A stretch of 64,000 bases of DNA, from positions 14,560,213-14,624,212 of the forward strand of contig OZ234493.1 in NCBI GenBank assembly GCA_965153455.1, in the 5' to 3' direction. Position 1 is the first letter of the stretch. Each line of letters starts with the position of its first letter. This stretch comes from Sphagnum compactum (taxonomy: Eukaryota). Made by a program: the position numbers and the translations under genes. Shown one piece after another: positions 19,765 through 44,060 of this stretch. The notes beneath the pieces were generated by a model, which had not been told where the DNA came from, did no database searches, and saw nothing but the letters and a program-made list of their open reading frames with translations.

Positions 19765-22013
<2,249 letters not shown>

Positions 22014-22239
22014 ATGGAAACAGTAGTAACAACTTCAAGTCCTTCAAGTCTCAGGTGCAACAGCAAAAACGAAGCTGCAAATCTCAATGCGTCCATACAA
22101 CAACAGTAGCAGTAGGAGCAGGAGAGCCACAGCTACGACAATTGGGAGGAAGAGACAGCTACGAAGAAGAAGAAGCTCTTGGAGAAACAAACCCTGCCTT
22201 TCGGGGAGTTCTCGGCGGTTTCACACCGTCCATAGTCAC

Positions 22240-23012: not shown

Positions 23013-23575
23013 TATGATGATGACCTCTGCTTCTGCAAATCTGCTTGATATTATTCAGTAAGAAAAAATTCTTCTCTATCAGAATTTTGTGGGCACAACA
23101 CAAGAGTAACAACAAAGTTCGGTGGAGCCACAGACGGGAAATAGAGAGGAAGAGTGTAATTTGGACTCCCCTGCAAACAAGGAAGATCAAGACCAAGCTC
23201 TCTTTAGTCCTGGTATAATACCTTACAAGTACACCTGCTTTTTTCTGGTATTGTCTGTCATAGGGACCGAATGTGAGGGACAACAAAGCGAGCAATATCT
23301 GCTGCTCACGACTACTAATCCACAAGCTCCTCATTTCCAACTGAAGAGATTATGTGTCGTCATTATGAAAACATAAAATTTCGAACAATCAAGATGTTCT
23401 GAGTGAGTGAATGAAATGCGTTTCTTCTTCTTCTTTTGCTCTTTTTTGTTTTTGTGTTTTAGGGTGTAGGGTTCTGAAGATGAAGAATTCTTGGTGCTTT
23501 TGTTTATTAACAGTGTGGCTGATGGGTGGGTGGGTGGCTGTCTGTCTCTATCTAGTATGCCTTCTTGCTCGCCAG

Positions 23576-24780
23576 GAACATTGTCTAAGAATTTTCCGGA
23601 GAGATGATGTCAAAGGTGTCCAAGCAGCAACATTGAAGCCCTTTACTGTGCTGCTGGAATGGAGCATTTCGCACTCGAAGCAGCCTCCCAACTTCTCGGT
23701 GGATTGGGGACTTACCAATGTGCTGATTGTTGAGTTTCGGCAAGCAAAATCACATGGAACATGTGCTTGAAAACAGTTCTCACCCTTTTTTCCTGTTTTC
23801 AAGATCTATGTACACATGATGTTGATGATGTAGGTTCCCATCAGTCCTCTTGCTATGGTGAATCAATCAATGAATTCGTTAAAATCAGATCTACTCTTGT
23901 ATTCCTTGTGGTGAGTTTTTCTCATCATCATCAAAGGTAACGTCTGCTGCTTTTTCAGCCTCTTCATTGCAGTAACTTCATCAGTATCTTCTTCTTCTTC
24001 TTCTTCTTCTTCCTCCTCCTCCTTCTCCTCATTTTCCTCCTCTTTTATGTCTTCCTCTTTGTGTAAAGTGATTGTGCTCCATTTTGGAAGAAGGTGGAGA
24101 ACATAAGACAACACCCTGATGATTCCTTTATAATTTGCCATTGTTATGATGAGCTGAGCCCAATTTCAATACCTGGAAGAAAGTGGGTGGTTTTTTCTTA
24201 AACCCTTTTGTGTGCATGTGGTGGTGGGGGGGATCTTGTAGTGAGATCGCACATTATTGTGCTGCTTAGGTACTTGGTTGAGAGTTTCAAGATTGCATTC
24301 AGTGAGGACCACGTGAACCAACTCTTGCAGCTTTATCTGAACACACTAGAAGCACAGTTACAACAACCCTCGCACACGCTCCTGGCAGGAGCAATGAAGT
24401 GTCTTGACTCGCTACTCACTTGGTTTGTGAGCAGCGAGTCAAGACACTTCATTGCTCCTGCCAGGAGCGTGTTGGTTTAATGATGAACTTCCTGCAGGAG
24501 GTAACAATATGTGCAATTGGCAATTGGTGGTTTTATTTTCTTTTGGGGGGACATGGGGGGACATGTTCACAATTTTCCCTTGTGCATAGGGTGTTGGGGT
24601 TGTCCTGTTGGGAAGCTGTCTCTTCATTTGGACCATGCACAAATAGATGGATATCTGAAAAGAAATGGTGGGCTTCAACAACTTGCAGGTTCTGTAGTGA
24701 ATTCACGGAGGTGCTTTGAATATATTGAGCAAGTATTATGGCCTCGTGAAGACCTAAAGAGATACGAGGTGTTGAGAGGT
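23576..24780 (+). pseudogene. PRKDC: Captured N-terminal exons of DNA-dependent protein kinase catalytic subunit
   Basis: LLQLYLNTLEAQLQQPSHTLLAGAMKCLDSLLTWF and FEYIEQVLWPREDLKRYEV resemble, as recalled, vertebrate DNA-PKcs ...PVLAGCLKGLSSLLCNF and ...IRPQIDLKRYAV; splice sites retained. Confidence 0.72.
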
Positions 24781-26103
24781 ATATCCTTGCACACTATTCG
24801 AATTTCCCACTACACGATTTCCCTTTTGGAGTTGCATGCAAGAGAAGTTGTAGACATTTTTCTCATCTTTTAAGCAACTGCAAATTTGGACTCTCAAGCT
24901 GTGTGGATTTTAAGTTATGTAGCTCTTCTCCTTAGATTGTTTGGTCTTCTTCTGTTTCAGGTTTTGTTGAGCTTTGCTTTCTTCTTGGGTTTTTGGTTTT
25001 CCCCTTCTCTTTTAGGTTTTGTTCAGCCATGCAGCACGATGGCTGAGTTAGTCCATTACTGCCAAACGTTTCTTCTGATAGAATGTTAGTACATTGGCTA
25101 ACGTTTGACCTTAACCTCCACCTATTACTAAGAGCTGATGAATGCAATGGGGATGTTCTGGTAGGTGTTCAATTCCATACATGTTGCTATTGAAGGTACT
25201 TGAACATGCATATGAACAGCCATTGTTGTTCAAACTGCTCCTCTGTTTTGGTTTTGGTTTTGGTCTTGTTTTTCTCATTTCTTAGGCTTGGTGTTCTTCG
25301 TTCATGCCATTATTGGTTGCTGTCATGTTATCAAATTTGAAAATTTGAAATGTCGACAGCTAAATTTCAGTGGATTTTCTTCATTTGCCATCTTTAGAAT
25401 TAAGCACGAAATTTAGTACTGAATTGGTAGCACTCTTGGTTTGAGGCAACAATCAGCCATTCTAATTGACTACTGTTTATGAAAATTGGAGAGCTTTTGA
25501 CTTAGTTAAATGCATTGCAATACTTTGAGAGCCCCTTCAAATACTGTGAATCCATGCTGAACAATCTAATCAACCTTTTTTTTGCCTCCCTGGTCCTGAA
25601 ATGCAGTTGCAAAGAAGGAAGGGTATTCATGAAGCTGAGCAGGTTTGGCTCAGGCTACTTTTTTTGGCTGCACATGCTACCCTACCTGTTTTAAACCTTC
25701 CTTCAACAAGGCACAAGCAATATCTGTTTTAACAAAGAGAAATAGGCATGCTTTCAGTTGAAAGTTGAAAGTTTATTATACCTTGATATTGGGTGATAGC
25801 TGGGAAAAGTAGAGGTTTGTGTTTCTGCAAAGTTTATTTTCCTTGACAATTGTTGGTTGCTGCTTTGAGGTAATGTCCCTTGCTTTATAGAATTGTTGTA
25901 GAGTAGTTTGGCAAGGCTTGAGAAGGGCCTGAGGTCTGACCCAGCTGCCAGACTAGTGTGTGGCTATGTTTTCTGTTTTGCTGGTCCCATGAAGCCTGCA
26001 ACAAACCTAAGACTCCTACTGTGTTCCATCCACTATTTGAAGTTGATGTTGCACCTAAGTGCTTGTTCTGCAGTATTTAATAGATATTTCTGGTGGATTG
26101 CAG

Positions 26104-26440
26104 GTAATGGTGCCCTATATGTACGAACAGTTCATCAGCAACTTGACATATGAGGTCAAAAGCGGGAACATCCCAGTGTCACGGAGTGATGATGTTGTTG
26201 CCAGAATTCTTCTGGTCAAATTTGAAACAGGTCTCTTTGAGGACCCTTATGCCAACAAGGGGCTTAAATCATTTATTGGCTAGCAAGTAATCACCTGCCC
26301 TCATGATTCATGAATTCAAGGAATTGCAATAATTTGTACTTATGCCCAACATTGGTCCACAATTGCTTAACCTTATCGTTGGAGTATGCAGAAGCACATA
26401 GATCATTAGCCCGTGAAGCAGTTAGAAGCAGTAGCCTCTC
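26104..26440 (+). pseudogene. Captured internal exons of a GH3 beta-glucosidase/exo-beta-glucanase
   Basis: VMVPYMYEQFISNLTYEVKSGNIPVSRSDDVVARILLVKFETGLFEDPYA, then AHRSLAREAVR after a short intron; in-frame TAG at 26281. Confidence 0.85.
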
Positions 26441-26854
26441 TCATATAACCAAACAATCTCCAAGCTTACGGAAGCTACCATGGTGGAGAAAGGCAGAGAA
26501 AGAGATGGGAATAAGGATTTGGGAAAGTTTGCTGTACCAAGAGACTTCAGTGGAACATATTGTGAAGCAGAACTTCCAAACAAATTTCAGAATAAAGTCA
26601 AAGGACATCTTCTGCTTTGCCATAGACCAGCTCACAAGACTTCTCTCTTGCTTTCTCTCTGATGAGTAATTCAAGCTTGCTGTGAAAATGTCATTCACAT
26701 AGTGTCTGTCAACCTGTACACAAAAGCTCTTTTTTGTGCAATCAATATTGCTCTTCACTAAGGACCATACAATCAAAATTTGAGTTGACACAAAGGCTGA
26801 ACTGCTAATGCAATTCTTTGTGCAACAAGATGCCATAATGTAGCAAAGAAGGAT

Positions 26855-26975
26855 GTGACCATTAGGAGCTCAGATATTGAAAACTGCAAACAAGAAAATG
26901 TGACCATCAGGAGCTCATGTACTGAAAACTGCAAACAAGAAATTGTGACCATCAGGAGCTCATGTATTGAAAACA
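26855..26975. repeat. ~48-bp tandem repeat, ~2.5 copies
   Basis: tgtgaccat(t/c)aggagctca...tgaaaactgcaaacaagaaa repeats. Confidence 0.8.
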
Positions 26976-27654
26976 GTATGTAGAGCTGAGCAAACCGGAA
27001 CATCACATGCACATATCATGATGAAGTGTTATGCGCATATGCACTTTCTTGCAGAAACTTTCAAAGGATTGCATTTGAAGATGTGCAGGTGCAAGAGTAT
27101 AATGCAGGGAAACAAAATTTGAAAGGGAAGATGAAAGAAACTTTCACCATGGGTGGGTGGCTACTACTACTCTTTGAAATCATCCTTGTCATTTGCCGGA
27201 ACCGGTCTGTTTCTCCAATTTATTTGCCAAGTATTGATTTTTGAACTAGCTCTAAACTCACACATTTCATATACTGATGAACTACAAACTGCTACAAACT
27301 GCATGAACTTTACAGACTGAAAAATCAGAAGTATCAGCCTAATGTGCAAAACATGCTCCTTGTTAGGCTCCTATTCACACCCTTGTAAAGAAATAAAATT
27401 GGTTGCAACTATCTAAAAGGTACCCCATAATAAATGAAGGTTTGTACTACACTGGGGAATTTGCAGCTACTAAATGCTTGTGTGTGGGCTCAACATGTTC
27501 AAGTTCAAACTGCAAAGGTTGTCAGGCTTTCCCTAAAAACCAACTTTTCTAGACTTGGAAGAGTAGAAGCATTGGGGAGGCTTGTGGCATACTATAACAA
27601 TTAGCATTTCTAAGGCAAGACCAACATAAGGCTAGTTGTTTGAGTAAGGTACAG

Positions 27655-30600
27655 ATGGAGCGTGACGAAAATGCAGTCATCAGTGATGCTGATGGTACAG
27701 CGGGTCACGATTCAGGAACGGTGGATGCTGATCCCGAAAAAACAACGCTAAACCCCTACATTTTAGCACGTAACAGGCGCATTGCTCAACTCAAACAACG
27801 ACTTGCAGAAGTTGAAGGAAGCGCACAAGAATTGTGAGTTCTTCTTAGACTTGTCTTCACATGCATAAATGGAGAGGACCATACAGAATTTAGTAATGGA
27901 TCGTGCAATCTCCATTGCCTGCACTGTATGAAAGAGTTTGGAAGTCCGACTATGTGCGTGAGTTTTGTGTATACGCAAATAGTTTGAACACGCTTCAATA
28001 ATCTTTGTTTTAGTGTTAGGTTGTAGCTACTCTCCAAATTCCAATCTATTCTAAATTTTTCATGGGGTTAGGGTTTAAGGTTTGAAATCGATGTGTTTGG
28101 TGCTACCATGAAATAGGGTTCCTGGTGATCATTTACTACATGCATAACTTAAAATTAGGTTTGTATGCTAGTTAGTGGTCATGTGCTTATTGAAACAGTC
28201 TTAGTCCAAACTAATTACTCCTTTGCTGTATTTTGGAAACATTCGGTCACTTGGCAGTCGTCACTTCATGGACTCAGCAACCATGCAAGGGAGGAAGAAG
28301 ACAAATAAGAAGTCCACCCAAAAGGTGGTGGATGGGAGAACACTTGGACACCAAAGCAAGAAGAGGAGCACTAGGAATGCTGGAAAACCACATCGTCATG
28401 TGGTGGAAGAGGAAGGGTTGTCGACATCAGCAGCATCTAGTGAACGCGACACTTCATGTAGCAGCGACTACAACTCAAAAGCAGAGGAGTCAGAAGGTTC
28501 TGAGCTGCCAGTTGCATCTTCAGTTATGAAGGAACAGAATAAGGCACCTAGCAAACGGACCCCCACACCAAATGTAATGTACCCCTCCCCCCCCCATCAA
28601 ATATTGTTTCTGAGGTCCATTTTGATGTCAAAGATACTAAAAGTAACAACATTATTGAAGGCACAATATCTGTGAAATTTCTGACTGGTCCTATATGAGC
28701 CTTGCTAGTCCGTATTGAGTTGAAGTTTATTCTAGCAAATGAAACTAAAGCAGAATAAAAACATGTAGGCAAGATCTACAACTTCACAGACAAACAAATT
28801 CTGGTAAAATGTTAACAAACATTAAAAAGACTCCCCCCACAGGCTTTGTGACTCAGCCTAACTCTGTGGCCCGAGCTCCCTCCCTCTATGTCTGCTGTGT
28901 GTTTTTTTCTGCAATCTAGTATTATGTGATTTTGTGTCTTTTGCTGCAATTTTGGTGTCTGATTTTGGTAGCCTGGTATGTGATTTTTTTTTTCTGGTGT
29001 GCAATTTTGTGTTTTCCTGCAGTCTGGTGTGTGTGATTTTGTGTTTTTTGATGCAATCTCATGTGTGAATGATTATTTTTTCCAACAATCTAATCATCCA
29101 AACGTCATGTTTTTGCTGCAGTAGTGTATTGTTTCCTTACAGATTCCTTAAAGATTTTCAGAGATCTTTTTTCTGGTTTATTTTTGACAGATGGATTGTT
29201 TTGCTAGTGATCTGATCAACCACTCTCTTCCTTATCATCTGTGGACTTGGTGCACACCTGTTTTGCATTCACCATCTAGTTTGATATAACACAAACAGAG
29301 ACAAACAGAACTTTCTTCTCTTCTTTCTCTTCTGACATCATATCTAAACTGAATGCTGCATTTTATCCCCCTCCAAGATTCCTCAAGAAGCAGTGACATT
29401 GGTCTTGACTGTAGATGTATTATTGTCAAGATTGTGTTCCAACTGCACAAGCCACACTGTAAAGAGATGTGATGTTCTGTGGGCTTTTGTGCCTGAAGAA
29501 TGTGAAGAAGTATAATTAATGATCCTAGAATTGTCTCCCTGATGAGTTTGCAAATCACTTTTTTCTTTAGGGATTGCATGCTTGTCTTACGGTCCAAATG
29601 CCCCGTTTGTTACAAGAGAACTGATATGTGCTTACTGGCTCTTAAACTGCACATTAGAGGTAGCCACTTGTAGAACATCTAGTATTGTCTTGTGGGTTTA
29701 CATGTTACAGCACATAAGCTCCATAAATTTGGAAATGGAAACATAAAATGGGGCCTAGTTAAAAAGGTAATTGCCAATACTCATTTGTCTATCTTCAACA
29801 TTAAGTCTCTCAACTATGATAGAAGGCTTAGGCAATAACACCTTAATTCTTCAACTAGCCTCTGTCCGTTTTCAGATAAGGGGGTAATTTATGTTATTTA
29901 CAGTGTCAATCATAGTAGAATGCTGAGTTTTCTCCTTCTGTTCTCGGTCTTGATGTTGGCCATGTATTAAGTGAGTGGAAGGCCAAAGTTCTTTTGTTTG
30001 TACAGAAGAGGACTCATGCTTCCTTACTGGTTCAAACCTCTTCTGATTCTTCTTTATACAGAGGTTGAGGTTGCTTGTATTAAACATGGTGTAGAAAGGG
30101 ATGGAGAACTCACAAGCCAACGATGGATCCAGTAGGTGTGCATTGGACCACTTCCGTATTCCAGACACATGGGTCTGTGGTGTTGTAGGGGTCTCGGTAG
30201 TACACTTTTTCTTGATTTCCTTTATCAAGATTGGAGATTTTTGCTTGAGCTTGTAATAGTTTCTTTAAATTCAGAGCTTGCAAAGTCTATCACTATTCTT
30301 GGAAATTATTGCCTTTATCCAGAGTGTCTTCAAGCTTTCAGTTAAGATCTAAAATTGTGCCCTTTTTGTTCATCAGAGTTTTTCTTTTGTATCAGGTTTT
30401 CTTTCATGTCCAGAAATAATCTTATAAATCTCCATGATTTCAGTAATGCAAATATGAAGTGGTTTTCTTTCAGAAATTTGCTGATCATGCTGTGTTCTGT
30501 AAAGGGTTAATTAAAGTCTTTTAACAGGCTTAGAAGGTTAAGGCAAAAGCACCTCAAACTTGTTGCCAAAATTTGTTCTGTTTCATATAGAGGTGTCATC

Positions 30601-33600
30601 TATGTAATCCGTAACACTGGTTCCAGTTAAGTGCTATATGATGGTCAAACCTGTAGCTCAGTCTTTGCAAGATCCTAAGAGCATGTAAGAGAAGCCCGAA
30701 CATTGGAAAAGCTCACCAATTCTGTTTTTGATTTAAAACTCTTCGTACGTGCTTAAGTCAAAGAAGTTTGTTGTTCATTTGGTATCTTTGCTAATGAAAA
30801 AATTATGGGAGATTTATGGATTCAAATGGGAAAATTGAACGTCAAAGGTTCAATCTTGCTGCCACAACAATAGGAGGAAATGGATGGTTGTCCTTCATTC
30901 TGCATTTTCCAAATCGTATGACTTAGAAAGAAGGTTGTGTAGCCAAGTTTGTAAAACCAGTCCTATGTTATGGAGAAAAGGTCTAGAGAAGGTCCTAAAC
31001 TTTCTGTTGTGCATCCCAAAAAGTTCGGAAGTCCAAAGTCAATCCCTTGCTGTTGGTTGGGTTTAGGGAATTTTCTCTTCGTGTGCCCTTCTTCTATAGA
31101 AAGATCCTATCTGTCATGATTCATCACTGGATTACCTTAGTGATCCATATGTTCTTTCCATAGAACTTTTGGCTGGATACAAAAGAAAATTGGATTTCCT
31201 CTATAAAGTTATACCTCATGGGAAGGTGTTTTCTGAATTTCTTACCAAAAACTTTGTTGGTTGTCTTCAATGTCATCAGTCTTTATGTGCATGCCTTTTA
31301 TATGTAGCCCTATTTGTGTGATTAGGGTTGTTCATGATTGATAAGTTTGCCATACGAATCTCTGTTTTTTTGGAATTTACATGTCTCATGTTGACAATAT
31401 ATGAGCAGACTGTATGTTTTCCTAGCTTCTACCCATTCCCTATGTATAACGTGTTGTGTGTGTGCTTGAGAAAAGAAAGCAACATCAAAGAAAGCTCGGG
31501 TTGAAACCCCACCACTTGTCGATATGGTGAATGCCACTAGGCTACAAAAGACCACATCGGCAACAGTACAAAGTCGCAAGCATGGTGGTGACTTTGCAAG
31601 GTGCAATAATCAGGCATGTAAACATGGTGTTGGAAGTTCAGAATGCACATGGAATGCTGGACAATGTGGGCACACAAGACAATGGAGTTCTTGCCAAGTG
31701 TCACAATGTCCTAATTGGAAGGTAAGATTGAGCCCTGGGCACAAGGGACTTACAAACTGTTGTGCCACTTGTGGAAGGGCTCCAAGCAACATGTATGAAT
31801 CAACATGGGGTGAAGGAGGGGGTGTGTGTGATCAGGGGCTATGTCAAAGGGTGCAACCACATTCACCCATGGGCGGGCAAGCACCAGACATGGCCTTGGA
31901 CAATGAAATAGAAGTAGATGCCCAGCCCAAGGTTTTCGCTGAAAGGGGTATGCAACGACGAGCTTTAAAGCGAGCTATAGAATTTGAAGCCCAAGAACGA
32001 AAGGAGAAAGGCTTGCCAGGCCATAAGGTGCAAGTGACAAGGCATGGCAAAATTGATGGTGCATGTGAAGGGAAGGATGCATGGGATGGTGCGATTAGGT
32101 CGCTAACACCTCGGATTTTGAACATGGCAGTGGTTAGGGTTACAGAACAGGACCCTGTGGACATGGCTAGACTCCGGTTGCAATTGGATGGGAGATTTGA
32201 ATATGTAGGTGGTGAATTAAGTGGGGCTGGCTTTAGGGATTGTGTAAGGCGATATATGAAAGGAGAAAGAGCACGCTTAAAAAGAAAGTATGCACAGAAA
32301 GGTGCCAAAGCCTGCCCACTTGAAGTGGACCGAGAACAATGGGAGAAATTAGTGACATATTGGCAACAACGTGAGACCAAGAATAAAAGTGAACACATGG
32401 TTGGTGCAAGAGGGGCAGTTGCAAATGTAAGCCACCTTGGGCGTGGTGGTAAGGCAGCTATAGAAGCAAAATTGGCAAGTTAACCCTAAAACCCTACTCC
32501 GTTGTGATGGCCAAATGGAAATTACAATATGTTGAAGTTATTATGCACTCACATGCCACATACAATGCTGAGCACTGAATGATGTCTGAAATGGGTGAAT
32601 GCAGAAATCCAGGCATCGCCGAAGCCCATCAATATCTGAGATGGCTGCTGTGGGACTAGAATCTAGTGGCACACCTGGGTACCCAGTGAGTTTTCCTAGC
32701 TGTTTCATTTGTCTTTCCTTGTCCTTTCCCTTTCTGTCTTGGTTATGGTTGATTGAGGGGATGTGATTAGCACTAGTATTGCATGGCCTACCTCAACCAG
32801 AAAGTCTGCTAAAGCAGTACCATCATCAGCAGAAGCTGGTGTAGCCTTTCCAAACAGCTTACCAAGTGACATCCCCTCACTGCTTTTACTAGTATCTGTC
32901 CTAGAAATGATATCATCAGGTACTGTGTCACCTGTGGCATAATGACCCTGTGGATTCAAGCTCCATAAGTCTGTTGTTTCATGCAATTACTTCACACTTA
33001 AGCTTCCAGTGGTGGATGAAGTATCATGTACTGCTTCATTCACAATTTTAAGTATTTCAACACTGGTTTCCTTAGCAGTATCTCTTGAATCAAAATCATC
33101 GGCTCCAGTATTCCAGATCCTTCATTCTGTGTTTTCCTGATATCTCATAATTCTCCTGTTGGTGCATATGTGGTCTCCAATCTTACCCAATCTGGTATTC
33201 TGAATTTTGTTTTTCTTTTGTTTCTTGTCTTCCCTTGTTTGGTTCTTTCTGTGGCTTCCTGAGGAAGTGTTAGCCTTGCTGTTTCTTCTTCATCGTGAGA
33301 TTGGAAATTTCTCTATTCTCATGCTTTTGGAATTGCGATTTAATTTGGTTTGGTTGCATTCTTTTGAGTGCTCTCCTTATACAAAGGTTTAACATATCGG
33401 ATCTGAATGTTAGAGAAAAATTTATAACAAATACTGGTTTTGGTAGGTTGTTTTTAAGTCCCATTATTTCAATACTTTTTGTCAGTTCAGTGGAACAACC
33501 ATTCACCTTGGATATATTTGGTTGAAATAGTAAGGATAAGTTGAGTTCTATGTTGTCAATGTAGCAGAAACTTCAGATTTTATCTTCTTAGCTAGATTTC

Positions 33601-36600
33601 CTCGTAGATAACTTGTTCCTCATATTTGGTCAGTTAGTCCTTAAGCAACCATTGGATGCCCACTGAGTACTGATTATGCAATTGTGAGCCATGGATTATA
33701 GCTCAACAATTAGTTAAGCTTTAATTCCGTAATTTTCCTTAGTATTAATGATTTGAATGCTTATAAGCCTCCAAGTAGTGATTATTAATAGTTGAATCAG
33801 CTTTTGTGATATTTCTAGGCATATAGTACTTCTTTATTTCAGTTGATGTAGCTCTTAATCAGTTAAGCACCTAGTAAACCTTTTAAAGTACATTATCCCT
33901 TTTATGTTGCAGAGAAGGGAAAGGGGATGTAGAATTAGTTGTGATTTATTGATATATAGGGAATACAAGCCCATAATTAACACTAGCATTCCGCCATGAC
34001 AAGGTTAAGTTAGTCTGTAGAAGAATCTTCAAGCACTAATGATGTACTTGTAAGATTTTTAGGATGTAGTCCTAATACATCTTTATTTAGTTTCACTTCT
34101 ATCAGACTTTTAAATAGAATCAAATCAAACTTAAGTATTAACATTTCCGCCTGAGTAACCTCAGGTGAATTACAACTGAATAACTAACTTAAAGGATAGA
34201 TCACAGTTGTAAAAAATCTAGGATGCGGCGAATGGTGCGAGCGAGGTACTCGGCTCGATGCTCCAGGGGAAGTGGGTTGATCGGGCCTCGTAGCCAACGA
34301 TAATGGCCATCACCAGGAACCCACGTTCGACAATGGAGACGGACATCATCATCTTCGCACTGGCACTCTTCAAACCTTTCTGGCGCGGCTCCACGAGCAG
34401 AAACAAACTCTAAATAAATTGCTAAAGCATGTGGGTTAGGGGACAGTCGACGATCCCATACCGAACGAGCGACTCGAGTACGCATCACTCTCCTGGGCGG
34501 TTCTTCTTCGCGCGGCCGTTGAGAAACATTCAAGTCGAGCGGTGCTTCTTCAAGCTCTTTTTGTTGTACGGGTGCGACTGGAGGATTTGAAGGCGTAGCG
34601 TCATCGTTCGCCATGACTAGTTGCACCTGCATCAACAAAAACCAAGAAGGTAGTACAAACAAGGTGGTACTTGCGTTCAAAAGGGGTCGAGGCCTTTTTA
34701 TTTAACAAGTTAGGGTAGGCGTAAGGTGTGGAAGTGACGGCGGAACCTTATCAAAACTCGAACACCCTAGATCTAAAGGATTCATCAAACCCTAAATTCA
34801 ACGGTGGATCTAAAAGTATGGGAGAGTTTTTTTTTATGCAAATTGTAATTCCAATTTACTATGTACTACATAGTTAATTAGTGCATAGTAAAGTAAATAG
34901 GAAAGGAATATCAAAGGAGTAAATGTTACACGGAAATGTTACTTCAACCATTGAATTAGTCAAGTAAGAACTCAAGGACTCTTCCTTGTTACTACCGATA
35001 ATTTATCCTAGTAGTTAGTTACTTGAAGTAATTCGGATGAAGAAGTAGGATGTGAGGGTCAACGGACGAAAAAGATATGGATCAAGCTCAAAAGACCTCA
35101 TCAAGATATCCAAGATAAGGGGGAGGTTGGATCCTCCAAATCCCATTAGTCATGAGGATTTTTCATCCTCTTTGATTAGAGGATGGAATATCTCTTGTGT
35201 TTCATTGGGCCCAAGGATTCTCATCCTAATTTCAATTGTATGGCCATTCATTCTCAAATTCTCATTGGCCCTTGAAGGATGAGGAGGCCATTGATTGGTG
35301 CAAAAGGATTTCAAAGCTTTCATTGGACAAGGGGAACAAGCTCAAGGAAGGTCATGGAGGCTTACCAAGGGAGAAGGCATTGTGTGTATGGGAAAAAAGG
35401 AGAAGAAGAGGAGAATGAAGTGTGAGAAAGGTTGTTAGTTCTTGTGTGTGGGAGGTGTTCATGGAAAGGTTATGAAAAAATGAAGCATGGAATGGAGTTG
35501 TGTGTAGCAAGTAATCGTAGTGAAGCCTCTGGACTTTTGGTTTAAGTAATTGTTTCTTTCAAATCCACCGTTGGATTTGTGTCAGAATTAGATTAATTTT
35601 AGTTTGAAAGGTGTAGAAGCTCCTCCCAAAAATTCAGCATCATCGGCTTTGCTGTGAGGGAGTTACAAGTGTTGGAAGTAGAGGGTGTTGAAGTGTTTTC
35701 CATGGGATGATTTCGTAGTGAAGCCTCTGGACTTTTGATTTAAGTAATTGTTTCTTTCAAATCCACCATTGGATTTGTGTCAAAATTAGATCAATTTTAG
35801 TTTGAAAGGTGTAAAAGTTCCTCTCAAAAATTCAGCATCATCGGTTTTGCTGTAAGGGAGTTACAAGTGTTGGAAGTAGAGGGTGTTGAAGTGTTTTTCA
35901 TGGAATGATTTCCATGGGGAAGCCTCTGGACTTTTGGTTTAATCAATTTTTTCTCTCAAATCCACCGTTGGATTTGTGTCAAATTTGAATCAATTTTAGT
36001 TCAAAAGGTGTAAAAAGCCCTCCCAAAAATTCAGCTTGATCGGGCTTTTTGTAAGGGAGCTACGCGGGTTGGAAGTAGAAGGGGTTGTAGTATCTGTTTT
36101 TTCTTCAAACTAGGCAAGTGGCTCCTAGCTCCAAGGCTTAAATCTAGATCAAAAAACATAAAATAAAAAACTTATGAGAGTTGTTTAAACATGGCTCCTT
36201 TTGTATTAGCTTCCAACTCCAACATCCAATTCCTTTCGTCAATTTACCCCCTCAGTAGATATTAGAGTAATCCTTCTCTGTTTCCGCGCCCTATTTGATT
36301 TGCGCACATAGTGCATCTTCATTTTTGTATCCCTACAACCCTTGACCACATATCTGCCCATCATCAGACGACTTCAAGATAAATGGGTGAACGCTCTAGA
36401 TAACAGCAAGTCTATATCTATAGGAAAAGCCCCGATCAGGAATTCCTTGTTAAGGTGAGATCTTTTGGCAGTCTTTCAAAAGGAGGCCGTAGGAAATCTA
36501 TTTTGGTCCTTGATGATCAAATCTCGACCAAACATCCCGCTTTTTTTGCAGAGCTCCTATGCTTGTCGGCTAAGGTAAAGATAGCTGATCATCTCACTTA

Positions 36601-39600
36601 GTAGTCCACCAGTTTTCGAATTTTCAGAAAATTACCACGGCAGGCGTTTGGTATTCCTAAAAAAACAAACACAAAGCAATCGATTATGGATGGCTTCCTT
36701 TGTGGTCGGTATCAGTTTATTTACTGATGCCAGGCGGTTAGCCAAGTCCATTATTCTGTCTTTACAAAATTTTATAGGATTTCGTAGATGGGTGTCTATA
36801 GCTTTATAGGTAAAGAGCCCTTTATTCTGCAAATTGATACCTAGTTACTTTTACGCGTTTTCTGAAGTTTTGGCATGAAAATTGAAGTCTTTGCATGCCT
36901 TATCCATGGTACGGATAATACTTTCATAGGCGGTTTTCACTGACAGAGGATATCTACAAAATCCACCTATCATCGCAGGCATAACCATAAAAAAGATCAT
37001 TAAAAAAACGTGAGCTATTATTAACACATTATAAAGCTGATGATTTCCACCAAGAATTTGATTGCCAGGTTGTGCTAATTCTATACGAATTAGTACTGAA
37101 AAGCATGTACCCATTACTCCAGCAATGGCACCGAAAATACAATATAAAGTGCCTATATCTTTGTGGTTTATAGAAAACAGCCATCTTTGTGCAAAATTGT
37201 TCATTTTATAACCCCATCTTTCAATAATATCATGCTTTGTTAAACTAATTTTGACTGATGTTCTCGTAATTTGGAAAAGCGAAATTCGTCACAAACTGTT
37301 GGAGTTGGAAGCTAATACAAAAGGAGCCATGTTTAAACAACTCTCATAAGTTTTTTATTTTATGTTTTTTGATCTAGATTTAAGCCTTGGAGCTAGGAGC
37401 CACTTGCCTAGTTTGAAGAAAAAACAGATACTACAACCCCTTCTACTTCCAACCCGCGTAGCTCCCTTACAAAAAGCCCGATCAAGCTGAATTTTTGGGA
37501 GGGCTTTTTACACCTTTTGAACTAAAATTGATTCAAATTTGACACAAATCCAACGGTGGATTTGAGAGAAAAAATTGATTAAACCAAAAGTCCAGAGGCT
37601 TCCCCATGGAAATCATTCCATGAAAAACACTTCAACACCCTCTACTTCCAACACTTGTAACTCCCTTACAGCAAAACCGATGATGCTGAATTTTTGAGAG
37701 GAACTTTTACACCTTTCAAACTAAAATTGATCTAATTTTGACACAAATCCAATGGTGGATTTGAAAGAAACAATTACTTAAATCAAAAGTCCAGAGGCTT
37801 CACTACGAAATCATCCCATGGAAAACACTTCAACACCCTCTACTTCCAACACTTGTAACTCCCTCACAGCAAAGCCGATGATGCTGAATTTTTGGGAGGA
37901 GCTTCTACACCTTTCAAACTAAAATTAATCTAATTCTGACACAAATCCAACGGTGGATTTGAAAGAAACAATTACTTAAACCAAAAGTCCAGAGGCTTCA
38001 CTACGATTACTTGCTACACACAACTCCATTCCATGCTTCATTTTTTCATAACCTTTCCATGAACACCTCCCACACACAAGAACTAACAACCTTTCTCACA
38101 CTTCATTCTCCTCTTCTTCTCCTTTTTTCCCATACACACAATGCCTTCTCCCTTGGTAAGCCTCCATGACCTTCCTTGAGCTTGTTCCCCTTGTCCAATG
38201 AAAGCTTTGAAATCCTTTTGCACCAATCAATGGCCTCCTCATCCTTCAAGGGCCAATGAGAATTTGAGAATGAATGGCCATACAATTGAAATTAGGATGA
38301 GAATCCTTGGGCCCAATGAAACACAAGAGATATTCCATCCTCTAATCAAAGAGGATGAAAAATCCTCATGACTAATGGGATTTGGAGGATCCAACCTCCC
38401 CCTTATCTTGGATATCTTGATGAGGTCTTTTGAGCTTGATCCATATCTTTTTCGTCCGTTGACCCTCACATCCTACTTCTTCATCCGAATTACTTCAAGT
38501 AACTAACTACTAGGATAAATTATCGGTAGTAACAAGGAAGAGTCCTTGAGTTCTTACTTGACTAATTCAATGGTTGAAGTAACATTTCCGTGTAACATTT
38601 ACTCCTTTGATATTCCTTTCCTATTTACTTTACTATGCACTAATTAACTATGTAGTACATAGTAAATTGGAATTACAATTTGCATAAAAAAAAACTCTCC
38701 CATACTTTTAGATCCACCGTTGAATTTAGGGTTTGATGAATCCTTTAGATCTAGGGTGTTCGAGTTTTGATAAGGTTCCGCCGTCACTTCCACACCTTAC
38801 GCCTACCCTAACTTGTTAAATAAAAAGGCCTCGACCCCTTTTGAACGCAAGTACCACCTTGTTTGTACTACCTTCTTGGTTTTTGTTGATGCAGGTGCAA
38901 CTAGTCATGGCGAACGATGACGCTACGCCTTCAAATCCTCCAGTCGCACCCGTACAACAAAAAGAGCTTGAAGAAGCACCGCTCGACTTGAATGTTTCTC
39001 AACGGCCGCGCGAAGAAGAACCGCCCAGGAGAGTGATGCGTACTCGAGTCGCTCGTTCGGTATGGGATCGTCGACTGTCCCCTAACCCACATGCTTTAGC
39101 AATTTATTTAGAGTTTGTTTCTGCTCGTGGAGCCGCGCCAGAAAGGTTTGAAGAGTGCCAGTGCGAAGATGATGATGTCCGTCTCCATTGTCGAACGTGG
39201 GTTCCTGGTGATGGCCATTATCGTTGGCTACGAGGCCCGATCAACCCACTTCCCCTGGAGCATCGAGCCGAGTACCTCGCTCGCACCATTCGCCGCATCC
39301 TAGATTTTTTACAACTGTGATCTATCCTTTAAGTTAGTTATTCAGTTGTAATTCACCTGAGGTTACTCAGGCGGAAATGTTAATACTTAAGTTTGATTTG
39401 ATTCTATTTAAAAGTCTGATAGAAGTGAAACTAAATAAAGATGTATTAGGACTACATCCTAAAAATCTTACAAGTACATCATTAGTGCTTGAAGATTCTT
39501 CTACAGACTAACTTAACCTTGTCATGGCGGAATGCTAGTGTTAATTATGGGCTTGTATTCCCTATATATCAATAAATCACAACTAATTCTACATCCCCTT

Positions 39601-42295
39601 TCCCTTCTCTGCAACATAAAAGGGATAATGTACTTTAAAAGGTTTACTAGGTGCTTAACTGATTAAGAGCTACATCAACTGAAATAAAGAAGTACTATAT
39701 GCCTAGAAATATCACAAAAGCTGATTCAACTATTAATAATCACTACTTGGAGGCTTATAAGCATTCAAATCATTAATACTAAGGAAAATTACGGAATTAA
39801 AGCTTAACTAATTGTTGAGCTATAATGCATGGCTCACAGCAATCATTTTAGTTTCACCTCTTCACATATGAGTTCAATATCTTTCAGGTGCCTTATGAGG
39901 TCTAATGTTTGTTCAATGCTCCCAAGGACTTTATTGGCAGTGGCAAACACTCTAATTCATTCCCCAAGCTTAATTGAACTTTTAATGGCTTCTCTTCAAA
40001 AAAGGTTTCAAATCCACCAGAGGCTAAAGCAGAGATCAAAATTGTTTAAACATCCAGCCAAGAGATCAAATCTGATGCCCCTGCAACTTTGAAAAGACTT
40101 CAAAGTTGTAGAGACTGTAGATTTGAACTCTTGGTTAGATTTCAGATTAGACAATTTATTTCTTTGTTTTGGCTAACGTGTGTATAGATGTTGCATCGGT
40201 ATCCCCTCCCTCGGGTACAAATTCTGCGGTCTATTTAGCTAATCTCTTCACATAGGAGCTCCTCTTTCTTTTTTAGGTTTTTCCTTTTCATTTCTTATTT
40301 CATTTTTGATTTCTTTTGTTTTTTTGTTTTTGTGTAAGTGGTGGTTCGTTTTGCAGTACCAGCAGCTATTCAGAGATGATGATAGGTTGATGGCAGCTTT
40401 GCACAGAATCAAGGAGACCTGCATTTTGTGTTTTATTATTCTTTCTAGTGCAGCATTTGCTGCAGTTCTTGTTTTGTTGCTTGCGGAATTAAAAGGTCTT
40501 GTGTACATGATCTCCTTGCATTTGAGAATTTTGGAACTTTGGGTCTTTCTGGATGCCCGCTCTAGTGGCTGCTTCTTTTGTAGAGTTTGGAATATATCAT
40601 GGTGAGAGATCCTGGTATTCCTTTTCCAGCTCGCGGCACTAGCTTGCAAGTGCCACTCGCCAGCTGAATGAATCGAGCTACTCATGATTTGCAGCCCGGC
40701 TCAATCTGCAACCGCTTGCATTGATTGAACCTCATAGTTTCTGATTTGCTCTAGACTAAATATTCATTTTTATTTCTGCCTTCATGAGTTTGATAGTAAT
40801 TAGTAAGTGGAATATTTATGTTGTCATTGTAAGGATCTTTTGATGGGTTAATTGGGCAAGCATCACAATCTCCCAGTTTGTTTTCTCGAATGACTGCCAT
40901 TGAAAAGAAGCTGCCAGAGATGAGTGGCCAAGTTTCCCAAGTTCTTGAAGGGATGGATAAATTGAATGCTAAGGTAAAAGATTTCATGCAACAATTGCTA
41001 GCATGTCGAGAAGATGGTGTGAATGTGAGAATCCCAAAAACTGTTGCAGCCACTGTAAACATTGAAGAGGTAGATGTTCCTTCAAGGACTGGATCCCCTG
41101 AGATTCTTGGTGTTGCAAAGAGCCTGCATGAGGTTCTTCATTCAGATCATGATGGACGAGGGTCAGGCACAACAGTGGTTGAGAGTGCCACACAATTAGC
41201 TCCAAAAGCCGATCATATCTCTACAGGAAAAGGGGTGGGCCAACAAGTGGATGGTGTTGTCCCTTCACATGTCCCCAACTATGTGTTAGTAGGAGACGAT
41301 ATCCCCAACTATGTGCTAATAGGAGAGGATATGGGGCAGAATCCTAATATGTCAGGGAAGGACAAAGAAGTTGGAGTAGCTTGCAAAGGCGGTGACTGTG
41401 TAGATGAGAGCAACCGCCAACGCCCACCCTCAAAGGTACGATCTAAGTGCCCAACATGACCAACACATTAAAGTTAGAGTCTACGAAATGCTATGGATTG
41501 TTCAATTGTGGGAGTACTCTTGCAGTGTATATCAAATGTGGCATATGTGTGGGATGTTGGGAATTGCACGAACTACATGGCTAAAATAGGACATAAGTTA
41601 GATTGTGGAAGCTAGATTTGTTGTTCTTTCTGTTACAATCTAAAGATTAAGAACATACCCACATTGTTTGGGGTCTAGGTGCATACAAGCTTCAAGGGAA
41701 ATCATTGACATGGTTTCACATTTGTATTCATTGATGGATTTGGTGTGGCAGAAAGTGCAAAAAAAGGTAGCAAGTATGCCAGCACCTGAAAGAGGTGTGA
41801 ACAGTCGGCTACGCTCTAATATTGGTGCAAGGGTGGGGAATGTAGGAGAGAAGGCAAGGCAACAGGTAAGTTAATACCAACATGCTCTTGCGTATCTATG
41901 ATTTATAACTAGGGAACACAAATGCCCTGTTTGACACAATGTTGTAACAAAAATTCCATTTTCCTAAATCGGTTGCTCATGGTAAATTGAATGAAGGTTC
42001 TTTATTGGTTGATGTGCAGTTTAAAGTAGGGGAAGCAATTGTCTTATGTAACCTTGATGCGGAGGTTGTAGCGAAGGGGCTGATAACAGGTGTTGGAGGA
42101 CAAGGATGTGTCCACCATGGGGTGCCAGTCAAGGAGTCATGGTTCCGAGTCCAGTTAAGTGAAATTGTGGCAGGTAAAGGCAACACCCCGTTGTTGGTGC
42201 CAAATGAGAATGATGATCCCCCACAATGTGTGTTAAAGGATGTAATAGGTTCAAGCACTGTATGGGAAGGTCGTCTAATGCGAAAGCATGCTTAA
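27655..42295 (+). CDS. CACTA TnpA-like multi-exon gene (exons approx. 27655-27833, 28258-28573, ~31476-32475, ~32604-32685, ~40834-41434, ~41752-41865, ~41980-42295)
   Basis: Ptta/En/Spm-like [20 protein letters not shown]...SHLGRGG and Tnp1/En/Spm-like C-terminal VVAKGLITG...HHGVPV...WFRVQL...PLLVP...IGSSTVW; lies between CACTA TIRs. Exon borders partly inferred. Confidence 0.72.
29300..31300 (-). mobile_element. Degenerate LINE (L1-like) ORF2 3' remnant in a TnpA intron
   Basis: Broken minus-strand ORFs ([14 protein letters not shown]...[15 protein letters not shown]) resembling a LINE RT C-terminus; no TSD found. Confidence 0.35.
34201..34614 (-). CDS. Orphan 137-aa ORF in the left arm (identical to 38907-39320)
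   Basis: [12 protein letters not shown]...RRILDFLQL*; CpG-rich, uninterrupted. Confidence 0.55.
   Translation of the reverse strand: MANDDATPSNPPVAPVQQKELEEAPLDLNVSQRPREEEPPRRVMRTRVARSVWDRRLSPNPHALAIYLEFVSARGAAPERFEECQCEDDDVRLHCRTWVPGDGHYRWLRGPINPLPLEHRAEYLARTIRRILDFLQL
35516..36090. repeat. 198-bp tandem repeat x3 in the left arm (mirror ~37431-38005)
   Basis: gaagcctctggacttttg...aaatccaccgttggatttgtgtc unit starting at ~35516, 35714 and 35912. Confidence 0.9.
36225..36958 (-). other. Spacer segment of uncertain origin, probably mitochondrial (possible group II intron ORF remnant)
   Basis: A long frame broken by stops continues from cox1 (…[28 protein letters not shown]…); identity is inferred only. 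Confidence 0.4.
36959..37204 (-). pseudogene. cox1: NUMT: first 82 codons of mitochondrial cox1, plus 92 bp of presumed 5' flank to 37296
   Basis: [82 protein letters not shown]. Confidence 0.97.
37297..39838 (+). repeat. Right 2,542-bp LTR-like arm (TGTTGGAG...GGCTCACA)
   Basis: TG...CA termini; TATA-like ctatatat and aataaa at ~39562-39576. Confidence 0.93.
38907..39320 (+). CDS. Orphan 137-aa ORF in the right arm
   Basis: ATG in gtcATGG context just after a pyrimidine-rich acceptor-like ttttgttgatgcag; open to TGA at 39318-39320. Confidence 0.55.
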   Translation: MANDDATPSNPPVAPVQQKELEEAPLDLNVSQRPREEEPPRRVMRTRVARSVWDRRLSPNPHALAIYLEFVSARGAAPERFEECQCEDDDVRLHCRTWVPGDGHYRWLRGPINPLPLEHRAEYLARTIRRILDFLQL

Positions 42296-42713
42296 GTTAG
42301 GGGCACTATAGGTCGAGAGCTAGTTGATTTTTGAATTCTAAAACCAACATATTTTGAGTAGTTATGGCCTTTTTTGGGTGTCAATGATATTTTAGACATT
42401 GTCAGGTTTAATAGACCTGATAGAGTGATGGATTCCTGGTTGCTGTAATTGGAACAATGGCCATTAAACCCCATTGGATGGAATTTCAATGTTATGACAA
42501 AAGGTAATTTGTTGGTTAAGTAACTGCAGATTTGTTACATGCAAAATTGCAAATCACAAATCTATGTGTGTAATATTTATTGGTTGATTTTTCAGCACTA
42601 GAGGAATATAATAGAGACCTGATATGTATAATGTACATTAGTTAAACTAGGTGTAGGTGTGCTCCTAATGCTAATGTGGTAATGGTTAATGCTACTAATC
42701 CTAATACATCATA

Positions 42714-42852
42714 ACCCTAAACCTTAATCCTAACCCTAAACCCTAACCCTAATCCTAACCATAAACCCTAACCCTAATCCTAACCCTAAACCCTAACCCT
42801 AAAACATATTTAACCTGTATGATGGAAAACCCTAACCCTAAACGTAACCCTA
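42714..42852 (+). repeat. Interstitial telomere-like repeats (CCCTAA/CCCTAAA/TCCTAA mix)
   Basis: accctaaaccttaatcctaaccctaaaccctaaccctaatcctaacc... Confidence 0.85.
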
Positions 42853-43712
42853 AAACATAGGTCAGCAGTTGCATATGCAATTCACCAGTTGCCTATGCAA
42901 CTAAATCTAATGGTTGTTGTGCTGCCACGTGGCGCACTATAACCGGTCTGATGAAAAACCCTAACCCTAAAACATGGGTTAGCAGTTGCATATGCAACTA
43001 AATCTAACGATTGTTGTGCTGCCACGTGGCGCACTATAAACGGTCTGATGAAAAAACCCTAACCCTAAAACATGGGTCAGCAGTTACATATGCAACTAAA
43101 TCTAACGGTTGTTGTGTTGCCACGTGGCGCACTATAAACGGTCTGATGAAAAACCCTAACCCTATTCCTAAAACATGGGTTAGCAGTTGCATATGCAACT
43201 AAATCTAACGGTTGTTGTGCTGCCACGTGGCGCACTATAAACGGTCTGATGAAAAACTCATGTGCCTAACCCTAATCCTAAAACATGGGTCAGCAGTTGC
43301 ATATGCAACTAAATCTAACGGTTGTTGTGCTGCCACGTGGCGCACTATAAACGGTCTGATGAAAAACCCCAACCCTAACCCTAAAACATGGTTCAGCAGT
43401 TGCATATGCAACTAAATCTAACGGTTGTTGTGCTGGCACATGGCGCACTATAAACGATCCGATGAAAAAACCACAACCCTAACCCTAACCCTAACCGTAA
43501 AACATGGGTCAGCAGTTGCATATGCAACTAAATCTAACGGTTGTTGTGCTGCCACGTGGCGCACTATAAACGGTCTGATGAAAAAACCCTATTCTTAACC
43601 CTAACCGTAAAACATGGGTCAGCAGTTGCATATGCAATTAAATCTAACGGTTGTTGTGCTGCCATGTGGCGCACTATAAACGGTCCGATGAAAAACCCTA
43701 ACCCTAACCCTA
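42853..43712 (+). repeat. CACTA subterminal array: 8 units of ~100-115 bp separated by telomere-like linkers
   Basis: Unit aaacatgggtcagcAGTTGCATATGCAACTaaatctaacggttgttgtgctGCCACGTGGCgcactataaacggtctgatgaaaaa(ccctaa)n. Confidence 0.92.
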
Positions 43713-44060
43713 CACATGTTCGCATACAATTCGGTGAGCTAATTTGCATGTAACGCAGTGTGAACGCAACCGTGTAGTTGCATGCAGTCGCATTTACAAC
43801 CGTAGGTATAGAATATGGGTGGATGAAACCGTATAACCCAACCGTATATACTTGCTCATATACGTATTGTGACATGCAACTAAAAGCGCCTGCAACTGGT
43901 TTTATGCAACTAGGCGAATTTGCAGTTGCATGTGTCGCATGCAACTGAAAATGCAACCAAACCAGTTGCATACGGCAGTTGCAAAATGGCAAATTTCTAG
44001 TAGTGTTAATAATTATATTAGTTAATTAGTTAACTAGTTAGGTGTCACTTATTTACTTAA

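What the first reader, a model, noticed from the sequence alone, without database searches (positions are those of the whole stretch)
38907..39320. Orphan 137-aa protein encoded inside the LTR-like arm
Seen: an intact, CpG-rich ORF in an otherwise AT-rich arm, preceded by an acceptor-like site. It has an acidic/Pro-rich N-terminus with PLDLN, a basic RRVMRTR patch and a Cys/His cluster (CQC-x7-HC-x8-H). Established: LTRs rarely encode proteins (MMTV sag and HIV nef are exceptions); PxDLS and DLNxxP/EAR are co-repressor-binding motifs; Arabidopsis VANDAL elements encode VANC anti-silencing proteins that act on their own tandem repeats. Inference: this could be an accessory zinc-binding regulator or anti-silencing factor, possibly acting on the neighbouring 198-bp array.
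Basis: partly seen in the sequence, partly recalled or inferred. Interest (0 to 1): 0.75.

Follow-up and report, generated by a model that had tools for sequence, protein, structure and literature searches.

The report
Moss retrotransposon repeat carries own gene
This small gene is real and belongs to a protein family of unknown fold that mosses carry inside the normally non-coding terminal repeat of a jumping gene; it probably regulates the element, but it is not the zinc-binding protein first proposed.

Summary
The 137-codon ORF is real, and it is no orphan. It is the cargo of a ~2.5-kb TG…CA unit with 5-bp target duplications (exact in 17 of 25 complete copies), very abundant in Sphagnum (1605 protein clusters). 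Most copies are dead (27 of 84 intact). Substitutions shared between subfamilies are purged (pN/pS 0.14, core 0.04), while private ones are neutral (1.03). Relatives at 30–45% identity occur in Physcomitrium and Ceratodon. One lies in sense just behind the polypurine tract of an intact Ty3/gypsy pol, so inside a 3′ LTR. The unit here is therefore most likely a solo LTR, though no parent element was seen (0 of 95 flanks).

The proposed Cys ligands are lost in distant relatives (1 of 54). An LxLxL-like motif, a basic patch and an ~85-residue core with GHxxWLxGP are kept. No Pfam, PDB or fold match was found. Splicing, expression and binding to the 198-bp array are not shown. In this window the gene is doubled in an unusual inverted structure around a mitochondrial filler. 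This scan noted the same kind of element before on other DNA of this genome.

The parts
38907..39320 (+). 137-codon ORF of the moss LTR-borne accessory protein family
   Evidence: intact, CpG-rich; family; purifying selection
38982..39002 (+). residues 26-32 (LDLNVSQ), aligned with the LxLxL-[ST]Q motif of distant relatives; EAR-like, variable inside the near family
39027..39047 (+). basic patch RRVMRTR (residues 41-47), candidate nuclear localisation signal (inference)
   Evidence: net +6 over residues 41-60; a basic cluster before the core in 42 of 54 distant relatives
39057..39317 (+). conserved core domain (residues 51-137): W53, L64-x-I66-x-L68, E83, G103-H104-x-x-W107-L108-x-G110-P111, C-terminal helix ending FL
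   Evidence: shared pN/pS 0.04; beta-hairpin plus helix in a low-confidence model
34201..34614 (-). identical twin of the ORF in the left arm
37297..39838 (+). right arm: 5'-truncated copy of the ~2.5-kb solo-LTR-like unit, ending in the family 3' end (…CTCACA)
33683..36224 (-). left arm: inverted copy of the right arm, 1 mismatch in 2542, same inner break point
36225..37296 (.). 1072-bp spacer, unrelated to the family (no hit in 79 loci), containing a decayed mitochondrial cox1 5' piece
36953..37204 (-). cox1 N-terminal fragment (nuclear copy of mitochondrial DNA)
   Evidence: Pfam COX1 E=5e-12
37430..38006 (+). 198-bp x2.9 tandem array upstream of the ORF (mirror copy at 35515-36091)
38156..38894 (+). 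candidate 5'-UTR intron (GT at 38156, AG at 38893-38894); not shown to be spliced
   Evidence: GT kept in 40 of 47 copies, AG in 65 of 82, neither above background; no such joint in 4 runs
33678..33682 (+). left 5-bp target-site duplication GCAAT
   Evidence: a contig of run X3 joins left and right flanks over a single GCAAT
39839..39843 (+). right 5-bp target-site duplication GCAAT
18880..44005 (+). host CACTA-type DNA transposon (CACTA ends, 3-bp TTA duplication) into which the inverted structure is inserted
   Evidence: weak Transposase_24 hit, E=0.002, below the curated cut-off

Best explanation
The ORF is an accessory gene that a lineage of moss Ty3/gypsy retrotransposons carries inside the LTR, in sense. 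The ~2.5-kb Sphagnum unit is that LTR left behind as a solo LTR, so each copy holds array, promoter region, gene and 3' end together. The protein is selected only while the element replicates; inserted copies are methylated and decay. Its likely job is that of a small nuclear regulator: a disordered acidic N-terminus with an LxLxL-like word that engages a TOPLESS-type co-repressor, a basic import signal, and an ~85-residue folded core that docks on a nucleic acid or chromatin partner. It would tune transcription of the element, by damping its own LTR or by titrating the host repressor. Shown: coding function, selection, motif conservation, LTR position in one relative. Inferred: solo-LTR origin of this family (about 0.8), nuclear location, co-repressor binding and target. 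The stated confidence is for the whole chain; that the gene is a real selected TE gene is about 0.95.
For: Selection: among 82 non-duplicate copies, leaving out C>T and G>A changes, singletons are 99 N / 31 S (pN/pS 1.03) and variants shared by 4 or more copies are 12 N / 28 S (0.14), Fisher p=2.4e-7. Four of five other frames show no such drop; the fifth is the in-register antisense frame. The result holds outside the six search words (0.18, p=4.8e-5) and is strongest in residues 51-137 (0.04). Indel openings are 0.4 per kb per copy in the ORF against 9.8 and 7.5 in the flanks. Carrier: TGTGAG…CTCACA ends, median 2535 bp, exact 5-bp duplication in 17 of 25 and one mismatch in 3 of 25. L080: a 770-codon open RT-RNaseH-integrase frame stops at 2314, a purine tract lies at 2343-2353 followed by TG, and a 92% match to relative P0325 starts at 2610 on the same strand. 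Database gene models join relatives to pol-like or gag-like sequence (P0358, P0336, P0323; my reading, no Pfam hit). Motifs: and one search counts. No transmembrane stretch.
Against: No parent element was seen for this Sphagnum family: 0 of 95 flanks share an internal region. The LTR placement rests on one contig (L080) of a relative about 35% identical, and that contig breaks off inside the ORF. The window's own motif is LDLNV, not strict LxLxL; position 28 is V in 29 of 82 near copies, and residues 1-50 show no significant selection signal (0.52, p=0.33). The 54 distant rows are dominated by one sub-group and are not independent. No spliced joint was seen and expression is unproven. Both structure models are low-confidence (pLDDT 51 and 53), so nothing shows what the core binds.
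Confidence: 0.42

Rival explanations
1. It is an accessory protein of the replication cycle, not of transcription: it binds element RNA, Gag or the integration complex (nuclear import, RNA export, suppression of RNA silencing), like retroviral accessory proteins.
For: Basic patch in 42 of 54 distant relatives. Such roles are proposed for plant additional ORFs (PMC7264820, main text read). The conserved surface of aromatic, His and Gly-Pro residues could bind RNA (inference).
Against: Does not explain the recurrent LxLxL-[ST]Q word. A gene within the LTR is transcribed best from solo or 3' LTRs, apart from gag-pol, which suits a trans-acting regulator (inference).
Confidence: 0.25
2. VANC-like anti-silencing factor: the core binds a motif in the family's own tandem array and removes DNA methylation from cognate copies.
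For: A second family with a distant relative has its own 190-bp x2.9 array upstream, of unrelated sequence, which resembles the co-evolution of VANC proteins and repeats (PMC5735166, passages read). The ORF of the active lineage keeps its CpGs.
Against: No similarity to any Pfam family in 62 members. No array is visible by eye before the ORF in L080. Copies carry heavy CG, CHG and CHH decay. An EAR-like word points to repression. Tandem arrays are common in plant LTR elements anyway (PMC11963269, passages).
Confidence: 0.15
3. The 2.5-kb unit is not recombination debris but moves as such: a non-autonomous, gene-bearing element with 6-bp inverted ends, mobilised by an integrase or transposase in trans.
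For: 0 of 95 termini adjoin a shared internal region. 1605 clusters exist. In this window two 3' ends bound one insertion with a clean 5-bp duplication.
Against: TG…CA ends with 5-bp duplications are the solo-LTR signature (established knowledge). Short-read metagenome assemblies under-represent full elements, and the loci were the best 80 of 438. A relative is inside a true 3' LTR.
Confidence: 0.13
4. It is a captured host exon that hitch-hikes in the LTR without serving the element.
For: Single-member clusters with two tandem copies of the core exist in Ceratodon purpureus and a second unnamed source (P0296, P0288), and the tree has no root.
Against: Purifying selection acts on the TE copies themselves, and the gene is kept as a full ORF in many TE families across Sphagnum and Physcomitrium. 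The tandem proteins form one starred group among TE-like rows (97/95), which fits domestication at least as well.
Confidence: 0.05

Closest known systems
Additional/extra ORFs of plant LTR retrotransposons (Grande gene23, RIRE2, Retand TRP28, Ogre ORF1, env-like ORFs); PMC7264820, PMC6317226, PMC11963269
   Same: Extra conserved gene of unknown function, kept in most copies of a Ty3/gypsy family, small and probably nuclear, next to tandem arrays.
   Different: Those are described in the internal region, mostly antisense between pol and the 3' LTR. This one lies within the LTR, in sense, is ~140 codons (under the 250-codon screen of PMC6317226), has no Pfam domain and is spread by solo LTRs.
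Phygy (non-chromovirus Ty3/gypsy of Physcomitrium; PMC6317226)
   Same: Moss Ty3/gypsy with a compact pol; close relatives of the protein are multi-copy in P. patens. The pol of L080 shows no chromodomain hit.
   Different: Phygy has 4-bp NCGN duplications and no extra ORF listed; this family has 5-bp duplications without an obvious motif. No RT tree was made.
LTR/U3-encoded retroviral proteins (MMTV sag, HIV nef, foamy virus tas); recalled, not from a call
   Same: Coding sequence inside or overlapping U3, in sense.
   Different: No sequence or fold link was found, the carrier is a plant retrotransposon, and there is no membrane segment.
VANC anti-silencing proteins of Arabidopsis VANDAL elements (PMC5735166)
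   Same: TE-encoded accessory protein beside family-specific tandem repeats.
   Different: VANDALs are DNA transposons (Mutator-like; recalled). No homology was found, no binding or demethylation is shown, and the array is not visible in every relative.

Membership tests
Solo LTR of an LTR retrotransposon | TG…CA termini with a short inverted repeat | tested here: met
   TGTGAG…CTCACA, with single-base variants, across the copies listed
Solo LTR of an LTR retrotransposon | 4-6-bp target-site duplication around a single unit | tested here: met
   exact 5 bp in 17 of 25, one mismatch in 3 of 25, none in 5 of 25
Solo LTR of an LTR retrotransposon | parent element with the same unit as direct repeats around PBS, gag-pol and PPT | tested here: inconclusive
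   0 of 95 flanks share an internal region; no whole genome held; a distant relative lies behind pol and a PPT-like tract
Plant additional ORFs (aORF/eORF) | kept as an ORF under selection across copies and families | tested here: met
Plant additional ORFs (aORF/eORF) | located in the internal region, between the LTRs | tested here: not met
   inside the TG…CA unit here and downstream of the PPT-like tract in L080
Phygy lineage | 4-bp NCGN target duplication | tested here: not met
   5-bp duplications against the table row read
Phygy lineage | RT/RH/INT phylogeny within Phygy | not tested
Zinc-binding (Cys/His) domain | conserved set of Cys/His ligands | tested here: not met
   C84 1 of 54, C86 1 of 54, H94 7 of 54, H104 52 of 54 in distant relatives; kept within the near family (76-82 of 82), so a family-specific site is not excluded
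EAR-motif repressors | LxLxL or DLNxxP word | tested here: inconclusive
   window has LDLNV, neither strict form; strict LxLxL in 29 of 54 relatives against 2.6 shuffled
EAR-motif repressors | binding to TOPLESS/TPR and repression | not testable with these tools
VANC anti-silencing proteins | homology to VANC domains | tested here: not met
   0 Pfam families in 62 members at E<=0.1
VANC anti-silencing proteins | binds own tandem repeats and demethylates cognate copies | not testable with these tools
   needs DAP-seq/EMSA and bisulfite data; the decay spectrum shows only that copies were methylated
env-like ORFs | transmembrane segment | tested here: not met
   highest 19-residue hydropathy 0.57; 0 of 54 relatives above 1.6 in their last 100 residues

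The most novel reading that the evidence does not exclude
Moss Ty3/gypsy elements carry, inside the LTR itself, an old regulator of new fold that recruits or titrates the host TOPLESS co-repressor. Every solo LTR is then a self-contained trans-acting gene, so LTR recombination multiplies the regulator instead of removing it. The domain has also been taken over as a tandem two-domain host gene in some mosses.
Probability: 0.3. Interest if true: 0.82.

Novelty: new variant of a known kind. Interest (0 to 1): 0.6.

Why it matters
LTRs of plant retrotransposons are treated as non-coding, and solo LTRs as inert remains. [quoted passage not shown] It also makes the open question of what plant retrotransposon accessory proteins do testable in Physcomitrium, which has multi-copy relatives and easy genetics. 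The core matches no known family or solved fold, and a possible domesticated version exists.

Tried and rejected
Zinc finger: rejected for the family. Orphan or chance ORF: rejected. Assembly fold-back as the cause of the inverted arms: unlikely, because the flanks are not mirrored, a 5-bp duplication bounds the structure, and a contig carries the empty site; read-level proof for this individual is lacking. Each arm as a complete LTR: rejected, the inner ends are truncations. Spliced N-terminal extension MPSPL: the upstream ATG is kept in only 11 of 47 copies, and no joint was found in 4 contig sets.

Searches without a result: Pfam, PDB sequences (1 hit, E=0.14), ESM Atlas twice, viral contigs (0 of 18 candidates), longer proteins of 329-2000 aa (0 of 7999, weak evidence), Rfam over 33600-40000. 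AlphaFold2 with 22 and 62 sequences gave pLDDT 51 and 53. The fold search topped at Z 3.7 (rmsd 3.5, 58 aligned), which is no match and no proof of a new fold. Homodimer prediction of residues 45-137 gave no verdict (score 0.01). Codon-model omega values from IQ-TREE could not be read out. Simple pairwise Nei-Gojobori ratios fell from 0.80 to 0.32 with distance, but control frames were distorted by CpG decay, so I rely.

RNA runs: all 18 RNA-type holders had small word shares (0.07-0.14). Of 4 runs laid, X1 and X2 look like one data set. X3 has summed contig depth 215-306 over most of the ORF against 64 or less outside it; X11 has none over the ORF; non-coding parts are covered too. This is not proof of transcription.

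Literature: no description of this family turned up in searches; subscription journals and bioRxiv supplements were not searchable.

Full report
OBSERVATION. The ORF at 38907-39320 is intact and encodes 137 residues. It is GC- and CpG-rich (0.53; o/e 1.23) against the rest of the arm (0.37; 0.34), which equals the window mean. An identical copy lies at 34201-34614 on the minus strand, because the gene sits in a 2542-bp inverted repeat (33683-36224 and 37297-39838, one mismatch) around a 1072-bp spacer.

LOCAL STRUCTURE. The whole 6.2-kb structure is bounded by a 5-bp duplication, GCAAT. A contig of run X3 joins the left flank to a single GCAAT and the right flank, which is the empty site in this or a sister element. 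The spacer holds a decayed mitochondrial cox1 piece (Pfam E=5e-12) and matches none of 79 family loci. The insertion lies in a CACTA-type element (18880-44005, TTA duplication), itself nested in a second one (17070-44879, TTT duplication). Both outer ends of the structure are the family's 3' end, and both arms lack the family's 5' end and stop at the same base. My inference: a break near the 5' end of an ordinary copy was repaired by annealing through the 6-bp inverted terminus, copying the unit backwards to the broken end, and sealing with filler DNA. An aberrant integration using two like ends would give the same picture. This is a property of this copy, not of the family.

THE CARRIER. In these the unit runs from TGTGAG to CTCACA, median 2535 bp. 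Of 25 copies with both ends, 17 have an exact 5-bp duplication, 3 have one mismatch and 5 have none. Of 36 5' and 59 3' flanks, none shares an internal region; the only shared flanks are duplicates of one locus or neighbouring pieces of the element. One cluster member is annotated in Sphagnum jensenii. These are solo-LTR features, but the parent element was not seen and no whole genome was held. The link to LTR elements comes from relatives. Contig L080, filed in a cyanobacterial assembly and most likely plant contamination (my inference), has a 770-codon open frame with RNase H and integrase domains ending at 2314, a purine tract at 2343-2353 followed by TG, and a relative of the ORF starting at 2610 on the same strand. 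That places the gene about 260 bp inside a 3' LTR of a Ty3/gypsy element. The contig breaks off inside the ORF. Several database gene models also join relatives to pol-like or gag-like sequence (my reading of the sequences, no Pfam support).

SELECTION. Of 84 ORF copies in the 79 loci, 27 are intact, 56 have premature stops and 5 have frameshifts. Most stops are C>T or G>A changes, and decay rates are 13% at CG, 19-25% at CHG and 9% at CHH, so copies have been methylated. After dropping 3 near-duplicates (82 rows, window included) and leaving out C>T and G>A changes, singletons give 99 N / 31 S (pN/pS 1.03) and variants shared by at least 4 copies give 12 N / 28 S (0.14), Fisher p=2.4e-7. Four other frames give 1.2-3.9 for shared variants; only the in-register antisense frame is low, 0.33. 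The loci were chosen by protein similarity, so I repeated the test outside the six search words: 0.18, p=4.8e-5. Residues 51-137 give 0.04, residues 1-50 give 0.52 (not significant). Indels open 0.4 times per kb per copy in the ORF and 7.5-9.8 times in the flanks, a contrast partly inflated by the same choice of loci. This is the pattern of a gene selected in replicating lineages and neutral after insertion.

THE PROTEIN FAMILY. 1605 of 1630 candidate clusters at 90% identity match, as do 160 representatives at 50%; a profile of 14 diverse members finds 1758 of 2673. Named members are Sphagnum jensenii, Physcomitrium patens (several near-identical predicted proteins) and Ceratodon purpureus. 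In 54 of 62 aligned rows under 60% identity, which are weighted to one sub-group, the kept positions are W53 (48), L64 (54), I66 (52), E83 (49), G103 (52), H104 (52), W107 (53), L108 (54), G110 (54), P111 (52) and F134 (53). C84 and C86 are each kept once, so the zinc-cluster idea fails for the family. A word of three alternating hydrophobic residues followed by S/T-Q occurs in 39 of 54 N-termini (0.24 in shuffles), strict LxLxL in 29 (2.6 in shuffles), and a basic cluster precedes the core in 42. In the near family the word varies (V for L28 in 29 of 82). That LxLxL is the EAR motif bound by TOPLESS is recalled knowledge. No Pfam, PDB, Atlas or fold match was found. The better model (pLDDT 53) shows two strands (63-71, 80-88) and a helix (117-134). 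Two single-member clusters, one from Ceratodon, hold two tandem cores; first pairs with first and second with second, in one starred group among TE-like rows of an unrooted tree. They may be a domesticated gene.

ARRAY, SPLICING, EXPRESSION. A second family in L018 has a distant relative (E=2e-42 to the profile) behind a 190-bp x2.9 array of unrelated sequence. L080 shows no array by eye before its ORF. The array-gene pairing is therefore recurrent but probably not obligatory. A 5'-UTR intron (38156-38894) is possible, but its ends are no better kept than other GT and AG sites and no joint was seen in 4 contig sets. One RNA run has several-fold more summed contig depth over the ORF than outside it, one has none, two look like the same data, and all cover non-coding parts. 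Expression remains unproven.

MECHANISM. Most likely (0.42) this is a small nuclear regulator made from the LTR's own promoter, which engages a TOPLESS-type co-repressor through the leucine word and a nucleic-acid or chromatin target through the core. Rivals: a cofactor of particle, RNA or integration steps (0.25); a VANC-like anti-silencer acting on the array (0.15); a unit that moves alone and is not a solo LTR (0.13); a neutral captured exon (0.05).

KNOWN SYSTEMS. Plant additional ORFs are described in the internal region, mostly between pol and the 3' LTR (PMC7264820, main text read; PMC11963269, passages). The REXdb survey counted extra ORFs of at least 250 codons and lists none for Phygy, which has 4-bp NCGN duplications (PMC6317226, passages and one supplementary table row). 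Passages of the P. patens TE paper contain no ORF in LTRs, and the study discarded LTR-retrotransposon assemblies under 1000 nt (PMC7466625). The Sphagnum genome paper mentions LTR content only briefly (PMC9946827, passages). VANC properties come from PMC5735166 (passages); PMC11899658 (passages) added nothing. Searches found no description of this family; subscription journals are not covered. Two earlier notes of this scan describe the same kind of element elsewhere in this genome; they are not independent evidence.

VERDICT. A real, selected accessory gene of no known family or fold in the LTR of moss retrotransposons; a new variant of a known kind. The zinc and anti-silencing readings are not supported, and the co-repressor reading is plausible but untested. 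Interest 0.6.

Noticed in passing
window 33683-39838: Near-perfect 2542-bp inverted duplication made of two 3' halves of the LTR-like unit around a filler with a decayed cox1 piece, with one clean 5-bp duplication outside. It could form a long hairpin RNA if read through.
   Followed up: partly
window 17070-44879 and 18880-44005: Two nested CACTA-type elements with 3-bp duplications (TTT, TTA). The inner one is 25 kb and holds host-gene pieces: an NDP-sugar dehydratase (22236-23012, minus) and a ubiquitin-conjugating enzyme fragment (21006-21278, minus).
   Followed up: partly
window 42712-43712: Subterminal region of the inner CACTA element has telomere-like TAACCC runs and a 110-bp x7 array containing them and a G-box-like CCACGTGG word.
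   Followed up: no
L080 2343-2365: Behind the purine tract the sequence reads as a short near-palindrome with CA followed by TG five bases in, like the off-register ends that earlier scan notes describe for moss gypsy elements.
   Followed up: no
P0296 (Ceratodon KC19_5G095800) and P0288: Single-member proteins with two tandem copies of the core domain; P0288 has a DLN word near its N-terminus. Possible domesticated host gene.
   Followed up: partly
L018 2083-about 4420: A second Sphagnum family with the same TGTGAG start, a 190-bp x2.9 array, a 26-bp CCAAT-rich array and a decayed distant relative of the ORF at 3597-3989; its 3' end and duplication were not fixed.
   Followed up: partly
L009, L030, L012, L019, L072: Several copies appear to sit inside reverse-transcriptase genes of other retrotransposons (flanks; my reading) or within a few kb of a second copy in either orientation, which suggests clustering in TE-rich DNA.
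   Followed up: no
L080 (record CADCWO010000123.1) and P0487: Moss-like retrotransposon sequence filed in bacterial metagenome-assembled genomes (a cyanobacterium and a Bacilli bin): probable contamination.
   Followed up: no
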